From Gammaproteobacteria bacterium (GTDB lineage Bacteria; Pseudomonadota; Gammaproteobacteria; Pseudomonadales; Azotimanducaceae): DNA of 53,181 nucleotides. How positions within the stretch are numbered: the first letter of the stretch is position 1; every line of letters starts with the position of its first letter. Shown here piece after piece: positions 4,416-28,961 of the stretch. A program made the translations under genes and the position numbers. Below the pieces are notes generated by a model that was not told the origin of the DNA, did not search any database, and saw nothing but the letters and a program-made list of their open reading frames with translations. Location of the stretch: positions 1 to 53,181 of the forward strand of contig JAQBCT010000376.1 of NCBI GenBank assembly GCA_032124855.1, read 5' to 3'.

Positions 4416-5741
4416 GTGACCACCACCACTGCAGCGTTCGATGTCGCATTTCGCGCTGAGCAATTCATAGACAGTCTGAAACGCGATGGCGTCGCTGGCC
4501 GACTGTTCGGCCACAGCCGCGAACGCACCGAACTCGCCAGCCACACGCTGTACGGCGGCAGTGGCGGCATCATTCTCTTCTACCTCGAGTTGTACGCGGC
4601 CACCGCACAGACCCGGTATCTCGATGTCGCGCGCTCGGCAGCGCGCGAACTCGCCGCGTATGTGCGCTCCACCCAGCGGCAATCGTGCGCCATCTATACG
4701 GGCTGGCCGGGCCACGCGTTCGTGCTGAGCCAAGCGGCAAAAGCGGCGGGTGATGCGGATCTGCGCCAGGCGGCGGTGCTGTGCCTGGATCGCCTGCGCG
4801 AAAGCGCCCATGAACTTGGCGCTGGCATTGGCTGGATTGAGCCCATGCCGTTTTCCGATATCCACGGCTTCAAGGGCGACCGCGAAATCTACGATGCGTC
4901 CGTCGGTGCGGCTGGCGCGGGCTTCGTGCTGCTGCGCGCCCCACGAGATGATCTGCATCCCCAGGCGCTTGCGTGGGCAACGGGTGTGGGCGATCGGCTG
5001 TTGGAGGTCGCGGATGCGACGCCGCACGGCTTGAACTGGGCGCTGATGTCCGAGATGCCGTTTGCCTGGACGCCGTCGAACTTTGCCCACGGCGCCGCGG
5101 GTGTCGGTGCGTTCATGGCGATGTTGTACGAAGCAACCGGACACGCCCGCTTTCTCGATGCGGCGCGCGCGGCGGCGGCGCATCTGATGCATCTCTCAAG
5201 CCCTGCAGGCGACGGTCATCTTGTTCACCACCATGACGGCGATGGTGAAAACCTGTTCTATCTCTCGGTATGCCACGGACCACCGGGCACCACCCGCCTG
5301 TTCTACCTGCTGCAGCGCATCACTGGCGAGGCTCAGTACGAACAGTGGCAGGACGGCGCATTTCGCGGGCTGCTCAGCACAGGTGCGCCAGAGACGCGCT
5401 CGGCGGGATTCTGGAACAACGTGTCGCAGTGTTGCGGTGATGCGGGGGTGGGCGACTACGCGTTGCAGAGCTATCACGCCAATGGTGATGCGCGCTATCT
5501 GGAACTTGCGGAGCGCGAGGCGGCCGAGCTGGTGCGGCGCAGTGTGGCCGTTGGCGACGGTCTGTGCTGGCCGCAGGCGGAGCATCGCGAGCGGCCGAAA
5601 TATCTGGAGGCTCAGACGGGCTACATGCAGGGTGCAGCGGGTATCGGCAGCTTCTTTGTGCACCTGGCAACCACCCGAGCGGGTCGGCCTGTGAAGATCG
5701 CCTTTCCCGATACGCCGTTCGCCGACGCGCCCGGGGATTGA
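4416..5741 (+). CDS. LanC-like (lanthionine synthetase C family) protein
   Basis: GTG start at 4416 with GGAG upstream. There are seven GxxG-type repeats typical of the LanC alpha-toroid: YGGSGG, GWPGHAF, VGAAGAG, FAHGAAGVG, VCHGPPG, QCCGDAGVG, QGAAGIG. Confidence 0.75.
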   Translation: MTTTTAAFDVAFRAEQFIDSLKRDGVAGRLFGHSRERTELASHTLYGGSGGIILFYLELYAATAQTRYLDVARSAARELAAYVRSTQRQSCAIYTGWPGHAFVLSQAAKAAGDADLRQAAVLCLDRLRESAHELGAGIGWIEPMPFSDIHGFKGDREIYDASVGAAGAGFVLLRAPRDDLHPQALAWATGVGDRLLEVADATPHGLNWALMSEMPFAWTPSNFAHGAAGVGAFMAMLYEATGHARFLDAARAAAAHLMHLSSPAGDGHLVHHHDGDGENLFYLSVCHGPPGTTRLFYLLQRITGEAQYEQWQDGAFRGLLSTGAPETRSAGFWNNVSQCCGDAGVGDYALQSYHANGDARYLELAEREAAELVRRSVAVGDGLCWPQAEHRERPKYLEAQTGYMQGAAGIGSFFVHLATTRAGRPVKIAFPDTPFADAPGD

Positions 5742-23250: not shown

Positions 23251-25578
23251 ATGCACACGCGCGGCCTGATTCTGCAGACCAGCTATCGGATCGCTGCCGG
23301 GCGTGCCGTGGTGCATCTCTTCGGCCGTCTCGAAAGTGGTGAAACCTTTCTTGCACGAGACCAACGCGCGCAGCCGCATTTCTATGTTGCGCAGCGCGAC
23401 GTCGCGCGCGCTCAGGCGCGCGCCGGCATTGCCGCCACGGCCTGCGCACTGAGGGACTTCTCAGGGCGCGCCGTGGCGCGTGTCGAGGTGGCGGTGCCGG
23501 GCGACGTCCCCGGCGTCCGCGATCGCCTGCACGCGGCGGGCATCGACACCTATGAGGCCGATGTGCGCTTCGCCACGCGCTATCTCATCGACCGCGATGT
23601 CCGCGGCGGCTGCGCAATCGAAGGTGAAGCGCAGCGGGGCGACGGCGTCGACTGGGTTTTTGACGATGCGACGATTACGGCGTGCGATGTGGACGTGCGC
23701 CCCTCCGTTCTATCGTTTGATATAGAAACAGACGCCAAGGCCAGCCGGCTGCTCGCCATTTCACTGTATGGCTGCGGTGCGGATGAAGTGTTGATCGTCG
23801 AACCGGGCGGGCGGGCGATGCCAGACCACGCCATCGCGTGCCAGGACGAACGTGCCGCAATTGCGGCGTTCTGTCGCCGGGTGAGCGAACTCGACCCGGA
23901 CATTCTGACGGGCTGGAATGTGGTGGACTTCGATCTCACGGTGCTTGCGCGCATTGCGGCGCGGGTGGGACACCCATTCGACCTGGGCCGCCAGTCGGGT
24001 GCGCTGCGCATCCGTCCCGCACGCGGTTACTTCGGCAGCGGAAGTGCGAACATCCCCGGCCGCGTGGTGCTCGACGGCATCGACCTGGTGCGAGGCGCGT
24101 TCATGCGCTTTGAAGATCATTCACTGGATGCAGTGGCGCGCGTAGTGCTGGGCGAAGGTAAAGCGCTGGCGGGCGAGGTGAGCAACCGTGCCGGCGAAAT
24201 CATGGCGAACTATCTGAGCGACCTGCCGGCGTTTGCGTTGTACGCCCGCACGGATGCGCGCCTTGCCCTGCAGATTCTCGAGAAGCTGGATCTCGTCACG
24301 CTGGCCGTGGCGCGCAGCCGGCTCACCGGCATGACCATGGACCGCGTCGCGGCGAGCATCGCCTCGTTCGACTTTCTGTATCTGGCCGAACTCAACAAGC
24401 GCGGCATCGTGGCACCCAGCGTGCGCACCGACGATGCGCGCGTGCATGCCGCACAAGCCGGCGGGCATGTGCTGGAACCGCGTACCGGTGTGCACAGTCA
24501 TGTATGGGTATTCGATTTCAAGAGTCTCTATCCCAGCATCATCCGCACATTCAACATCGATCCATTGGGTTATGTGGCGGCGCACGATACGGCAGTTGAT
24601 CTGATCGAGACGGAGGGCGGTGCGGCGTTCAGACGCGATCGCGCGATTCTGCCGCAATTGCTCGACGAACTGTTTCCGCGGCGTGAAGCAGCCAAACAGC
24701 GCGGCGACGGCGTGGCATCGCAGGCGATCAAAATTCTGATGAATTCTTTCTATGGTGTGCTGGGCACACCGGCGTGTCGCTTCTACAACCCGGCGCTCGC
24801 CAATGCCATCACAGGGCAGGGGCGTCACCTGCTGTTGTGGACCAAAAGCTGGTTCGAGCGCGCCGGCTACACCGTCCTGTACGGCGACACGGACAGCCTG
24901 TTCGTCGCGTGCGGTGCCAACGACGCTACAGAGGCGGCTGTGCTCGGCGCTGATCTCGCCCAAGCCGTGACGCGCGACGTGGCGGAATATGTGGCTGCGC
25001 GCTGGCGCGTCGCCAGCCGGCTTGAACTGGAGTTTGAAAAGCTCTACTTGAAGCTGTTTCTGCCGTCGGTGCGGCATGGCTCGGCTGGCGCGCGCAAACG
25101 CTACGCCGGGCAGGTATTCGGTGCCGCAGACGGTGTGATCGAATTCGTCGGTATGGAGGTGGTGCGTCGCGACTGGACAGAGCTGGCCAAGCGAGTTCAG
25201 CGCGAGCTGTATCTGCGTCTATTCACGGATCAGCCGGTGGAAAAGTATCTGAAAGACATCGTGCGCCGCGTTCGTGAAGGTGCGCTGGATGGCGAGCTCG
25301 TCTATCGCAAAGGACTGCGTAAATCGCTGCGCGAGTACACCACCAGCACGCCGCCGCACGTCGCCGCCGCGCGCAAGTCCGCGGCGGCACCAGGCCGGCT
25401 CATCTCATACCTGATGACCACCGCGGGACCGGAGCCGCTCGACAATCTGCAGCATCCGCCGGATCGTCAGCACTACGTCGATAAGCAGATCCGCCCCGTC
25501 GCCGAACCGGTGCTGGCGACACTTGGATTCGAATTCGAGCAGGTCATCGGCGACGATCGGCAGATCGGGTTGTTCTAG
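23251..25578 (+). CDS. polB: DNA polymerase II (family B)
   Basis: ORF 23251..25578 (775 aa). Exo motifs: SFDIETD, GWNVVDFDL, YARTDARL. Pol motifs: DFKSLYPSII, KILMNSFYGVLG, YGDTDSLF. Confidence 0.9.
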   Translation: MHTRGLILQTSYRIAAGRAVVHLFGRLESGETFLARDQRAQPHFYVAQRDVARAQARAGIAATACALRDFSGRAVARVEVAVPGDVPGVRDRLHAAGIDTYEADVRFATRYLIDRDVRGGCAIEGEAQRGDGVDWVFDDATITACDVDVRPSVLSFDIETDAKASRLLAISLYGCGADEVLIVEPGGRAMPDHAIACQDERAAIAAFCRRVSELDPDILTGWNVVDFDLTVLARIAARVGHPFDLGRQSGALRIRPARGYFGSGSANIPGRVVLDGIDLVRGAFMRFEDHSLDAVARVVLGEGKALAGEVSNRAGEIMANYLSDLPAFALYARTDARLALQILEKLDLVTLAVARSRLTGMTMDRVAASIASFDFLYLAELNKRGIVAPSVRTDDARVHAAQAGGHVLEPRTGVHSHVWVFDFKSLYPSIIRTFNIDPLGYVAAHDTAVDLIETEGGAAFRRDRAILPQLLDELFPRREAAKQRGDGVASQAIKILMNSFYGVLGTPACRFYNPALANAITGQGRHLLLWTKSWFERAGYTVLYGDTDSLFVACGANDATEAAVLGADLAQAVTRDVAEYVAARWRVASRLELEFEKLYLKLFLPSVRHGSAGARKRYAGQVFGAADGVIEFVGMEVVRRDWTELAKRVQRELYLRLFTDQPVEKYLKDIVRRVREGALDGELVYRKGLRKSLREYTTSTPPHVAAARKSAAAPGRLISYLMTTAGPEPLDNLQHPPDRQHYVDKQIRPVAEPVLATLGFEFEQVIGDDRQIGLF

Positions 25579-27266: not shown

Positions 27267-27492
27267 ACAGCTCTCCGCCGCCGAAGCGCGCTACTACAAA
27301 ACAGCGCGGGCGCTCGCGCATGGCAACGACTACGTCGACTGGGGTGGGGTGAGCAAACGAACCATGAATGACTGGGTCAGCGTCAGGGCGCTGACGGCGT
27401 TGCACGCGGCCGCGCCACTGCTGAAGCGGCACGGTCCACTCGGGGTCTCTATTCGTCTATGATCGAACCCGCCAATACGGAGGAATCAAGCC

Positions 27493-27972
27493 ATGGCCAA
27501 GTTCAATGACCTCACGATGAAATCCATCACCGGAGAGGCTGTCGCCTTTTCCAGTTTCAAGGACAAGGTCTGCCTCGTCGTCAACGTCGCGAGTCAGTGA
27601 GGCCTCACCCCGCAGTACGCAGGTCTGCGTACCCTTCATGAAGATAACAAGGCCAAGGGCTTCGCGGTCCTGGGCTTCCCGTGTAATCAGTTCGGAAAAC
27701 AGGAACCCGGCAGCAATGCTGAGGTCCTGAAATTCGCCCAGTCCAAATATGACGTCACGTTTCCGATGTTTGAGAAGATCGAGGTCAACGGCGCCGGCGC
27801 GTGTGATCTCTACCAGCATCTGAAAGCGGAGCAGAAGGACGAAGACGGCAAGGCCGATATCGGCTGGAACTTCACGAAGTTCCTCGTCGATCGAAAAGGT
27901 GAGGTCATTGCACGCTTCGGGCCGAAGACCACGCCAGAAGAGATCGCCGCGGTGCTGCCGAAGTATCTTTGA
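27493..27972 (+). CDS. gpx: Glutathione peroxidase with in-frame UGA at the catalytic position (candidate selenocysteine GPx)
   Basis: RBS GGAGGA at 27479-27484 and ATG at 27493. Codon 36 is TGA (27598-27600). The same frame then stays open to the TGA stop at 27970-27972 and joins track ORF 27766..27972. Translation reads ...KVCLVVNVASQ-U-GLTPQYAGLRTL...GFAVLGFPCNQFGKQEPG...WNFTKFLVDRKGEV. The UGA sits where GPx/BtuE homologues have Cys (NVAS.CG.T). The Gln, Trp and Asn tetrad blocks are intact. Confidence 0.7.
27615..27632 (+). promoter_or_regulatory. SECIS-like mRNA hairpin downstream of the in-frame UGA
   Basis: GTACGCA-GGTC-TGCGTAC is a perfect 7-bp stem plus tetraloop, or 8 bp if the GT centre is ignored. 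It starts 14 nt after the UGA. Its apical GCAGGUCUGC is the same decamer I recall from the E. coli fdhF SECIS. Confidence 0.55.
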
Positions 27973-27979
27973 TGCGCGC

Positions 27980-28007
27980 GAGCGCTTCAGCTGAAGCTGA
28001 AGCGCTC
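27980..28007. terminator. Bidirectional hairpin between the convergent gpx and SDR genes (REP-related sequence)
   Basis: GAGCGCTTCAG-CTGAAG-CTGAAGCGCTC gives an 11-bp perfect stem. It begins 8 nt after the gpx stop and overlaps the last codons and stop of the SDR gene. There is no clear T-tract. Confidence 0.4.
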
Positions 28008-28961
28008 CCCGCACAGCCGTTCGGAGAGTTCCCACAAGCGCTCCGCAGCCGCTGGATCCAGCGCATCTGCGTTCACGCCGCTGATGCGTTCGCCCTCTGC
28101 GGCCGTCTTCGCCACGTTGCAGTCCTCCAGGTATTGCCCGCCGTGGCCGTCCAGCAGTTTCGATGTGGCGGCCCAGGTCGCAGTGGCGGCACCACCCTGC
28201 ACGGTCTTGAAGCCTTCGCGCGGTTTGCCGTTCTCATCGAACCAGCCCATGGCGTTCATTTCATCGAACGTCAGATCCTTCTGCAGGCCCGTCATGATGC
28301 CGCCGGGGTGCACGGCAAATGCGCGCACGCCGGCGTCGCATAGTCGCTTATCGAGACCCACGGTAAACAGCACGTTGGCCGTCTTGGCCTGACCATAGGC
28401 CTGCCACTTATCGTACGCGCGTCGTTCAAAATGCGGATCGTCGAAATCCACGCCGGCGATTTTGTGCCCGGTGGAGGAGAGATTGACCACGCGCGCCGGC
28501 GCACCGCGGCGCAATGCCGGCGCCAGCAGACACGTCAGCAGAAAGTGACCCATGTGATTGGTCGCGAACTGCGATTCCCAGCCGGCCTCGGAGCGCGCCA
28601 GAGGACACGCCATGATGCCGGCGTTGTTGATCAGAATGTGCAGGGGCGCACCCGTATCGAGAAACGATTTCGCAAAGGCGCGTACGCTGGCCGGATCGAT
28701 GAGATCCATCTCTGCCACGCGCATGTTGTCGTTGCCAGTGTCGGCTCGGATGTCCGCGGCCACCGCTTCACCCTTCGCCATGCTGCGCACGGGCAGCCAT
28801 AGGTTCGCGCCCGCTTTGGCCAGTGCACGCGCAGCTTCAACACCGATGCCCGATGCCGCGCCGGTGACGATCGCGGTTTTGCCCGCGAGGTTGATCTGCT
28901 TCACCACCTCCAGGGCCGTCGAACCGTGCCCGAAAGGCGAATTGATGGGTTGCTGTGCCAT
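27987..28961 (-). CDS. Short-chain dehydrogenase/reductase (SDR) family oxidoreductase
   Basis: ATG at 28961 (RBS GGAGAA) in ORF 27987..29033. Contains TGAASGIG (TGxxxGxG), NNAG and the YGQAK catalytic YxxxK. Confidence 0.85.
   Translation of the reverse strand: MAQQPINSPFGHGSTALEVVKQINLAGKTAIVTGAASGIGVEAARALAKAGANLWLPVRSMAKGEAVAADIRADTGNDNMRVAEMDLIDPASVRAFAKSFLDTGAPLHILINNAGIMACPLARSEAGWESQFATNHMGHFLLTCLLAPALRRGAPARVVNLSSTGHKIAGVDFDDPHFERRAYDKWQAYGQAKTANVLFTVGLDKRLCDAGVRAFAVHPGGIMTGLQKDLTFDEMNAMGWFDENGKPREGFKTVQGGAATATWAATSKLLDGHGGQYLEDCNVAKTAAEGERISGVNADALDPAAAERLWELSERLCGERFSFS

What the first reader, a model, noticed from the sequence alone, without database searches (positions are those of the whole stretch)
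27598..27632. Hairpin after the UGA carries the same apical GCAGGUCUGC as the E. coli fdhF SECIS
- GTACGCAGGTCTGCGTAC (27615-27632) is a perfect palindrome lying inside coding sequence, 14 nt after the UGA.
- Folded, it gives a GGUC tetraloop closed by A-U, C-G and G-C pairs.
- This is the arrangement I recall for the SelB-binding apical stem-loop of E. coli fdhF (GGUUGCAGGUCUGCACC).
- It differs from fdhF in two ways. It lacks the bulged U, and the loop sits one codon further from the UGA.
- A perfect 8+8 palindrome at this position is unlikely to be needed for the amino-acid sequence alone. The encoded residues QYAGLRT are not conserved in GPx homologues after the QY.
Basis: partly seen in the sequence, partly recalled or inferred. 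Interest (0 to 1): 0.7.

Follow-up and report, generated by a model that had tools for sequence, protein, structure and literature searches.

The report
Selenocysteine insertion hairpin in bacterial GPx
The hairpin is real and is very probably the mRNA signal that makes the ribosome read an in-frame UGA as selenocysteine in a bacterial glutathione-peroxidase gene, which is a known kind of element in a known selenoprotein family.

Summary
Window 27493-27972 (+) is a 159-codon glutathione peroxidase gene. Its catalytic Cys codon is replaced by TGA at 27598-27600. The hairpin lies 14 nt downstream at 27615-27632, with a 7-bp stem and a GGUC loop. Its apical 10 nt, GCAGGUCUGC, are identical to the E. 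coli fdhF SECIS, which I verified in E. coli genomes.

By itself the hairpin is not statistically unusual. The comparative evidence is decisive:
- All 26 distinct TGA-containing relatives carry the hairpin at the same offset. They come from Acidimicrobiia, Gamma- and Deltaproteobacteria MAGs and from metagenomes. Only 1 of 131 Cys-codon relatives carries it.
- The five hairpin codons are each frozen to a single codon. None of 32 other invariant residues is.
- Two stem pairs show compensatory changes (G-C to A-U through G.U, and C-G to U-A), each paid for with amino-acid replacements.
- A syntenic Cys orthologue encodes the same peptide QYAGLR with different codons and has no hairpin.

The element meets all four criteria of the published bacterial SECIS model. 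It differs from the E. coli fdhF type: no bulged U, the loop 3 nt further from UGA, and no Rfam SECIS_2 match.

Bacterial Sec-GPx genes with SECIS elements have been reported since 2005, so this is a new member of a known kind. SelB binding and the Sec machinery of the source genome could not be tested.

The parts
27479..27484 (+). Shine-Dalgarno-like GGAGGA, 8 nt upstream of the ATG
   Evidence: Read directly from the sequence. Not tested further.
27493..27972 (+). Glutathione-peroxidase-like selenoprotein gene: 159 codons plus a TGA stop, with the motif U-G-L-T
   Evidence: Pfam GSHPx E = 6e-41. The frame is open on both sides of the internal TGA here and in 12 relatives. Catalytic NQFG and WNF motifs are invariant.
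27598..27600 (+). In-frame UGA at the position of the catalytic Cys, read as the selenocysteine codon
   Evidence: It aligns with TGC/TGT in 131 Cys relatives and with TGA in 25 other relatives. TGA is the ordinary stop of 26 of 39 genes in the window.
27601..27614 (+). 14-nt spacer between UGA and the stem, with no conserved pairing
   Evidence: RNAalifold predicts no conserved lower helix. Synonymous sites vary here.
27615..27632 (+). SECIS hairpin: 5' arm 27615-21, loop GGUC 27622-25, 3' arm 26-32
   Evidence: Energy -8.5 kcal/mol for the 18 nt alone. 98.9% of cells are paired in 26 TGA forms and 2 pairs show compensatory changes.
27616..27630 (+). 15-nt core TACGCAGGTCTGCGT, identical in the first 21 TGA forms. 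The apex CAGGTCTG (27620-27) is identical in all 26.
   Evidence: Five of 5 codons are frozen against 0 of 32 elsewhere, Fisher p = 2e-6.
27980..28007 (.). 13+13 perfect inverted repeat just after the GPx stop, between convergent genes. Possible terminator hairpin with no T run.
   Evidence: The terminator scan did not call it.

Best explanation
The hairpin at 27615-27632 is a bacterial selenocysteine insertion sequence (SECIS).

**Proposed mechanism.** While the GPx mRNA is translated, the apical stem-loop is bound by the C-terminal winged-helix domains of the Sec-specific elongation factor SelB. The apex is a GGUC tetraloop stacked on A-U and C-G pairs, 21 nt downstream of UGA. SelB carries Sec-tRNASec and is tethered at the right distance to deliver it to the UGA in the A site. 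Codon 36 therefore becomes the catalytic selenocysteine of a 159-residue glutathione peroxidase, and translation does not end after 35 residues.

**Shown here**
- The gene, the in-frame UGA at the catalytic position and the fold.
- The strict association of the hairpin with UGA across relatives.
- Purifying selection on the RNA sequence at synonymous sites.
- Compensatory base-pair changes.

**Inferred, not shown**
- SelB as the binding partner, from the identity of the apex with the E. coli fdhF SECIS and from established knowledge of bacterial Sec decoding.
- Actual Sec insertion.
- The presence of selA, selB, selC and selD in the source genome.

Because the element lies in coding sequence, it also fixes the peptide Y-A-G-L-R downstream of Sec.
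For: 1. The GPx frame is intact on both sides of TGA in the window and in 12 relatives. The catalytic motifs downstream are conserved.
2. The element meets all four criteria of the published bSECIS model (PMC13188914):
   - Loop of 4 nt and stem of 7 bp.
   - GG at the first loop positions.
   - 21 nt between UGA and the loop.
   - Energy of -8.5 to -9.5 kcal/mol.
3. 26 of 26 distinct TGA forms keep the five core pairs plus GGTC, against 1 of 131 Cys forms. The 14-mer ACGCAGGTCTGCGT occurs nowhere else in about 870 kb of loci and window.
4. The codons for Y, A, G, L and R are each a single codon in 21 TGA forms. All 32 other invariant degenerate residues use 2-6 codons. Fisher p = 2.3e-6.
5. 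Compensatory changes occur in TGA forms:
   - Pair 22-31 is G-C in 23 forms, G.U in L177 and A-U in L173 and L174.
   - Pair 21-32 is C-G in 25 forms and U-A in L178.
   - No shuffle of 500 reaches the observed covariation score.
6. Cys relatives inside the same clade have decayed hairpins: L005, L006b, L172, L180 and L181. The syntenic Cys orthologue L166 encodes QYAGLR as CAA TAC GCG GGC CTT CGC.
7. The apical GCAGGUCUGC is identical to the verified fdhF SECIS. The loop G and U of fdhF are reported to be essential for SelB (PMC8659212).
Against: - No selA, selB or selD and no tRNA gene lie in the 53-kb window or in the flanks of the related loci. The Sec trait of the source organism is therefore unverified.
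- No Rfam SECIS model matches, even at E <= 10.
- The bulged U, reported as essential for E. coli SelB, is absent. The loop is 3 nt further from UGA than in all three E. coli SECIS elements.
- One Cys-codon form, P0037, keeps a perfect hairpin.
- The five variant TGA forms were picked because their peptide differed, and the association statistics are not corrected for phylogeny.
- Fold energy alone is unremarkable.
Confidence: 0.9

Rival explanations
1. The hairpin is a by-product of the peptide QYAGLRT and local codon usage. The TGA is a true stop, giving a pseudogene or a truncated product.
For: - The fold energy is not different from shuffles.
- Another perfect 8+8 palindrome in the same gene (27866-83) is plainly a by-product of WNFTKF.
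- 35 TGA-plus-hairpin combinations in the window meet generic criteria.
- Some Cys forms encode the same AGLR.
Against: - Cys forms encode the same peptide with free codon choice and no hairpin (L166, L172, L181).
- The frozen codons GCA, GGT and CGT are minority codons elsewhere in these genes.
- The frame downstream of TGA stays open, and its catalytic residues are conserved in 26 diverged relatives.
- Compensatory changes cost amino-acid replacements.
Confidence: 0.02
2. The hairpin is a selected RNA structure with a role other than SelB recruitment. It might be a ribosome pause site, an mRNA stability element or a generic stimulator of near-cognate UGA read-through by Trp or Cys tRNA.
For: - One Cys-codon form keeps the hairpin intact in 12 contigs.
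- No Sec machinery could be shown.
- The element lacks the bulged U that E. coli SelB needs (PMC8659212).
Against: - The other 130 Cys forms lack the hairpin, including seven close relatives that show stepwise decay.
- The loop GGUC and its two closing pairs are invariant in sequence, not only in pairing, and equal the known SelB-binding apex of fdhF.
- The UGA sits at the one residue where Sec and Cys interchange in GPx. Trp there would remove the redox residue.
- TGA is the normal stop codon in this window.
Confidence: 0.05
3. The palindrome acts at the DNA level, as a protein-binding or restriction-type site, and its position after TGA is a coincidence.
For: It is a perfect DNA palindrome apart from the central 2 nt.
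Against: - The G.U intermediate (L177) and the U.G outer pairs in six forms keep RNA pairing but break DNA symmetry.
- The element has a fixed offset from TGA, on the coding strand only, in unrelated genomic contexts with no synteny among TGA loci.
Confidence: 0.01

Closest known systems
Bacterial SECIS elements of GPx-like selenoproteins (Treponema denticola GPx; Sargasso Sea and GOS marine GPx: PMC1088965, PMC1794560, PMC2398784; 'GPX-like protein, PF00255, UxxT' in PMC13188914)
   Same: - Same protein family and the same UxxT motif (U-G-L-T).
- UGA at the catalytic Cys position.
- A stem-loop with G in the apical loop directly downstream, in the coding region.
- Cys homologues far more numerous than Sec forms.
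   Different: I could not see the published GPx SECIS sequences, because they are in figures only. Identity with this clade's hairpin is therefore untested. The published cases are predictions too, listed as 'predicted with high confidence'. Added here for this clade: invariance across phyla, compensatory changes, and decay in Cys descendants.
E. coli fdhF SECIS (Rfam RF01988 SECIS_2), the SelB-binding 17-nt minimal hairpin GGUUGCAGGUCUGCACC
   Same: - The apical 10 nt GCAGGUCUGC are identical: the GGUC loop plus A-U, C-G and G-C closing pairs.
- They lie in the same reading frame and encode Ala-Gly-Leu.
- The element is located in coding sequence just after UGA.
   Different: - No bulged U.
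- A continuous 7-bp stem that is more stable: -8.5 against -4.2 kcal/mol.
- 14 nt rather than 11 nt between UGA and the hairpin, so the loop is 3 nt further away.
- No conserved lower helix.
- The Rfam model finds fdhF at 87 bits but nothing here at E <= 10.
- A different host protein.
E. coli fdnG / fdoG SECIS
   Same: A hairpin after UGA with a G-U step in the loop, GCAAGUCUUGC.
   Different: The loop is AGUC/GUC rather than GGUC. The offset matches fdhF, which is 3 nt closer to UGA than here.
Remnant SECIS-like structures after Sec-to-Cys conversion (PMC1794560)
   Same: Cys forms nested in the Sec clade keep partial hairpins (L180 one change, L005 and L181 two changes) or a complete hairpin (P0037).
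   Different: These are relatives, not the window gene. The window gene has TGA and an intact element.

Membership tests
Bacterial SECIS (bSECIS consensus model as given in PMC13188914) | Apical loop of 3-9 nt on an upper stem of 4-16 bp | tested here: met
   4-nt loop and 7-bp stem.
Bacterial SECIS (bSECIS consensus model as given in PMC13188914) | At least one G in the first two loop positions, usually G followed by G or U | tested here: met
   The loop is GGUC and is invariant in 26 TGA forms.
Bacterial SECIS (bSECIS consensus model as given in PMC13188914) | [quoted passage not shown] | tested here: met
   21 nt (27601-27621), the same in all 26 TGA forms.
Bacterial SECIS (bSECIS consensus model as given in PMC13188914) | Minimum free energy of -7.5 kcal/mol or lower | tested here: met
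   -8.5 kcal/mol for the 18 nt alone. -9.5 kcal/mol for the hairpin-only centroid.
Bacterial SECIS (bSECIS consensus model as given in PMC13188914) | Lies in the coding region directly after an in-frame UGA that aligns with Cys in homologues | tested here: met
Bacterial SECIS (functional definition) | The element goes with UGA and is lost when the codon is Cys | tested here: met
   26 of 26 against 1 of 131. There is one exception, P0037.
Bacterial SECIS (functional definition) | Binds SelB and supports selenium-dependent UGA read-through | not testable with these tools
   Needs binding and reporter assays.
Bacterial SECIS (functional definition) | The host genome encodes selA, selB, selC (tRNASec) and selD | tested here: inconclusive
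   None were found in the 53-kb window or in the locus flanks. These genes need not be linked, and the rest of the genome is not available.
E. coli fdhF-type SECIS (Rfam RF01988 SECIS_2) | Match to the family covariance model | tested here: not met
   No SECIS hit at E <= 10 in 27450-27750. In the positive control, fdhF scores 87.1 bits.
E. coli fdhF-type SECIS (Rfam RF01988 SECIS_2) | Loop G23 and U24 on the GCA/UGC apex | tested here: met
   GCAGGUCUGC is identical.
E. coli fdhF-type SECIS (Rfam RF01988 SECIS_2) | Bulged U17 in the 5' arm | tested here: not met
   The 7-bp stem is continuous with no bulge in any of the 26 forms.
E. coli fdhF-type SECIS (Rfam RF01988 SECIS_2) | 11-nt spacing between UGA and the minimal hairpin | tested here: not met
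   14 nt here. fdhF, fdnG and fdoG all have the apex 3 nt closer to UGA.
GPx-like selenoprotein (PF00255, UxxT) | GSHPx domain with U/C-x-x-T and the conserved Gln and Trp/Asn motifs | tested here: met
   Pfam E = 6e-41. U-G-L-T, NQFG and WNF are invariant.

The most novel reading that the evidence does not exclude
**Main reading.** The 8-nt apex CAGGUCUG, a GGUC tetraloop on A-U and C-G pairs, is a sequence-specific SelB recognition module shared across phyla.
- It is identical in E. coli fdhF and in GPx genes of Acidimicrobiia, Gamma- and Deltaproteobacteria.
- In this clade it works without the bulged U that E. coli SelB requires and one codon further from UGA.
- It has travelled with the GPx gene by horizontal transfer.
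- It leaves a peptide fossil, AGLR, in Cys descendants after the RNA structure has been erased.

**More speculative extension.** In one lineage (P0037) the intact hairpin sits after UGC, so a Cys codon might still be read as Sec by a tRNASec with anticodon GCA.
Probability: 0.3. Interest if true: 0.45.

Novelty: new member of a known kind. Interest (0 to 1): 0.3.

Why it matters
- **Annotation.** Standard gene callers split or miss this gene. In the public protein collection its relatives appear as C-terminal fragments of 122-124 residues or as proteins with Trp at the Sec position. In the window a 192-codon shadow ORF covers the gene. Recognising the SECIS gives the correct 159-residue selenoenzyme.
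- **Biology.** The clade is a clean natural experiment on a coding-region RNA signal. It shows frozen synonymous sites, base-pair compensation paid for with amino-acid changes, and stepwise decay after Sec-to-Cys change.
- **SelB recognition.** The clade suggests that the GGUC apex known from E. coli is used by distant bacteria without the bulged U.
- **Limits.** None of this changes the accepted picture of bacterial Sec decoding.

Tried and rejected
- **Rfam, gathering threshold.** The whole window gave nothing.
- **Rfam, E <= 10.** The local region gave only chance microRNA-type hits.
- **Fold-energy z-scores.** They were not informative.
- **Conserved lower helix pairing the UGA.** Single sequences show varying small helices, but RNAalifold keeps only the 7-bp stem.
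- **Covariation in the first 21 TGA forms.** There was none, because the core is invariant. Variants had to be found through the protein search.
- **Sec machinery.** There is no tRNA in the window or the locus flanks. Pfam on 40 window ORFs found no SelA, SelB or SelD. tblastn with E. coli SelA and SelB hit only generic GTPases in two Cys loci.
- **Synteny among TGA loci.** There is none. Only the Cys form P0009 is syntenic with the window.
- **Source organism.** The window proteins occur only in Logan assemblies of metagenome runs ERR50107xx. GPx relatedness points towards Acidimicrobiia-like relatives but is not proof.
- **Generic SECIS-like scan of the window.** It gave 35 hits, so it is too unspecific to reveal further selenoprotein genes.

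Full report
**1. The observation**

Window 27493-27972 (+) reads as one 159-codon frame interrupted by a single TGA at 27598-27600:

MAKFND...NVASQ*GLTPQYAGLRTLHED...KYL*.

- With Cys in place of the stop, the protein matches Pfam GSHPx at E = 6e-41 and NCBIfam glutathione peroxidase models.
- The TGA sits exactly where glutathione peroxidases carry their catalytic Cys or Sec.
- A GGAGGA lies 8 nt before the ATG.
- The repeat finder reports arms 27615-22 and 27625-32, 8 nt each, 100% complementary, 2 nt apart.
- As RNA this gives a 7-bp stem with loop GGUC (27622-25). It is the MFE and centroid structure of the region.
- The hairpin starts 14 nt after the UGA, and the loop starts 21 nt after it.

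The 42-mer TGACACGGCCCATCGGTTGCAGGTCTGCACCAATCGGTCGGT is 100% present in fdhF of more than 5400 E. coli genomes. The shared GCAGGTCTGC begins 15 nt after TGA in fdhF and 18 nt after it here. It is in the same reading frame (Ala-Gly-Leu), and there is no bulged U here.

**2. Is it more than chance?**

Not on its own.
- Fold energies do not differ from dinucleotide shuffles: z = -0.07 and -0.45.
- A generic rule is satisfied 35 times in this 63% GC window. The rule was an in-frame TGA with open frames on both sides, a stem of at least 6 bp, G among the first two loop bases, and 16-37 nt spacing.
- The same gene holds another perfect 8+8 palindrome, 27866-83, encoding WNFTKF. Its codons vary freely in relatives.

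**3. Relatives decide it**

*First sample.* A scan of one genome per species returned 80 GPx loci.
- The 11 closest loci apart from one (L005, see below) have TGA at the catalytic codon. They are MAGs of Acidimicrobiales/Ilumatobacteraceae, Gammaproteobacteria/Pseudomonadales and a Deltaproteobacterium. The rest have TGC or TGT.
- A metagenome scan added 9 more TGA forms.
- In all 21 TGA forms the frame is open on both sides.
- All 21 share the 15 nt TACGCAGGTCTGCGT at the same offset, although their proteins are only 47-70% identical.
- Across the gene, the only invariant nucleotide run longer than 5 is this one.
- The five codons for Y, A, G, L and R are each a single codon. All 32 other invariant residues with degenerate codons use 2-6 codons. 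Fisher p = 2.3e-6.
- The 14-mer ACGCAGGTCTGCGT occurs nowhere else in about 870 kb of fetched DNA.

*Second sample: stem variants.* A protein search showed further TGA forms, called either as Trp-containing proteins or as fragments starting just after the TGA. I fetched the DNA of all five whose peptide differs within the hairpin.

| Locus | Sequence of the hairpin codons | Effect on the stem |
|---|---|---|
| L177 | GCA...TGT | G-C becomes G.U |
| L173, L174 | ACA...TGT | the same pair becomes A-U (Ala to Thr and Arg to Cys) |
| L178 | TAT...CAT | the neighbouring C-G becomes U-A (Arg to His) |
| L179 | core unchanged | loses only the outermost pair |

On 26 TGA forms:
- 98.9% of cells pair.
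- Two pairs show changes on both sides.
- No shuffle of 500 reaches the observed covariation score.
- The loop GGUC and its two closing pairs never change.

*Cys relatives.* In a neighbour-joining tree of 146 GPx sequences, the TGA forms make one clade with two Cys forms nested in it, L005 and L006b. Both have decayed hairpins.
- P0009 (L166) is a Cys form 69% identical to the window protein and syntenic with it (Amidohydro_2, GPx, SnoaL_4). It encodes the same QYAGLR as CAA TAC GCG GGC CTT CGC, with no hairpin.
- L172 and L181 also encode AGLR without the hairpin. L180 differs from it by one base.
- Counting distinct sequences, 26 of 26 TGA forms have the five core pairs plus GGTC, against 1 of 131 Cys forms. 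Fisher p = 8e-29, not corrected for phylogeny.
- The exception is P0037 (L169-171, L184-189): TGC with a perfect hairpin, identical in 12 contigs from one set of samples.
- Remnant SECIS-like structures after Sec-to-Cys conversion are documented (PMC1794560). The age of this conversion cannot be judged, because no close TGA relative is in hand.

**4. Mechanism**

The best explanation is a bacterial SECIS. The apical stem-loop recruits SelB with Sec-tRNASec, so that the UGA 21 nt upstream is read as Sec. This gives a full-length selenoenzyme.

- Shown: purifying selection on RNA sequence and pairing, tied to the UGA.
- Inferred: SelB as the partner. The apex is identical to the fdhF SECIS, where the loop G23/U24 and the bulged U17 are reported as the SelB contacts (PMC8659212).
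- TGA is the ordinary stop of 26 of 39 genes in the window, so a dedicated recoding signal is needed.
- The Sec machinery itself could not be shown. There is no tRNA and no selA, selB or selD in the window or the locus flanks. These genes need not be linked.

**5. Comparison with what is known**

The element meets every criterion of the published bSECIS model. The criteria are a loop of 3-9 nt, a stem of 4-16 bp, G in the first two loop positions, 16-37 nt from UGA, and an MFE of -7.5 kcal/mol or lower (PMC13188914; PMC10778597).

It is not a member of the fdhF-type family.
- Rfam SECIS_2 scores E. coli fdhF at 87 bits and SECIS_3 scores it at 36 bits. Neither hits the window at E <= 10.
- The bulged U is absent.
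- The spacing is 14 nt rather than 11 nt.
- The three E. coli elements all place the apex 3 nt closer to UGA.

Bacterial Sec-containing GPx genes with downstream SECIS elements are already published:
- Five in the Sargasso Sea, with one GPx SECIS drawn in a figure (PMC1088965).
- Treponema denticola GPx (PMC1794560).
- 40 in the GOS data (PMC2398784).
- 'GPX-like protein, PF00255, UxxT' in a 2026 review.

The same review notes that many bSECIS elements resemble neither each other nor the E. coli ones. The 10-nt identity with fdhF is therefore a small curiosity, not a new principle.

**6. Verdict**

- Novelty: a new member of a known kind.
- Interest is modest. The clade gives a tidy example of an RNA signal constraining a coding sequence, and it hints that the GGUC apex serves SelB in distant phyla without the bulged U.
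- The unexplained UGC-plus-hairpin form P0037 is the one lead that could turn into something less ordinary.

Noticed in passing
L169-171 and L184-189 (protein P0037; runs SRR26074208-19): This GPx has TGC (Cys) at the Sec position but a perfect copy of the SECIS hairpin, identical in 12 contigs. It is either a recent Sec-to-Cys conversion with a remnant SECIS or a hairpin still in use, for example Sec at a Cys codon. There is no tRNA within 10 kb.
   Followed up: partly
window 27866-27883: A second perfect 8+8 palindrome, GGAACTTC AC GAAGTTCC, lies in the same gene and encodes WNFTKF. Its codons vary in relatives, so it is a by-product of the peptide and serves as a negative control for the SECIS hairpin.
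   Followed up: yes
window 27980-28007: A 13+13 perfect inverted repeat, GAGCGCTTCAGCT / AGCTGAAGCGCTC, lies 8 nt after the GPx stop, between the convergent GPx and short-chain dehydrogenase genes. It may be a terminator hairpin, but it has no T run and the scan did not call it.
   Followed up: no
window 27457-28035 (-): A 192-codon shadow ORF on the opposite strand covers the whole GPx gene (GC3 0.57 against about 0.75 for real genes). A gene caller could pick it instead of the split selenoprotein gene.
   Followed up: partly
L166 (P0009), L172, L181 and many Cys proteins: Cys relatives of the Sec clade keep the peptide AGLR, while typical Cys GPx have AGLE or AGLQ. The hairpin is erased at synonymous sites, so the peptide looks like a fossil of a lost SECIS. 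Sec and Cys forms are interleaved in the tree, which suggests repeated conversions.
   Followed up: partly
L006 2534-3480: An Ilumatobacteraceae MAG carries a Cys-GPx gene and a Sec-GPx gene in tandem. The two are each other's nearest relatives in the tree.
   Followed up: no
window 23251-25578 (+): A family B DNA polymerase gene (775 aa; DNA_pol_B E = 3e-45) lies about 2 kb upstream of the GPx gene, next to ChrR-cupin and amidohydrolase genes.
   Followed up: no
window 4416-5741 (+): This ORF encodes a LanC-like (lanthionine synthetase C-like) protein. The 851-codon ORF before it has no real Pfam match. The context was not examined.
   Followed up: no
L182 and L183 (E. coli fdnG, fdoG): The two E. 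coli formate dehydrogenase genes share an identical 48-nt stretch after their Sec codon (codon 196). Its apex is GCAAGUCUUGC, at the same offset from UGA as in fdhF.
   Followed up: no
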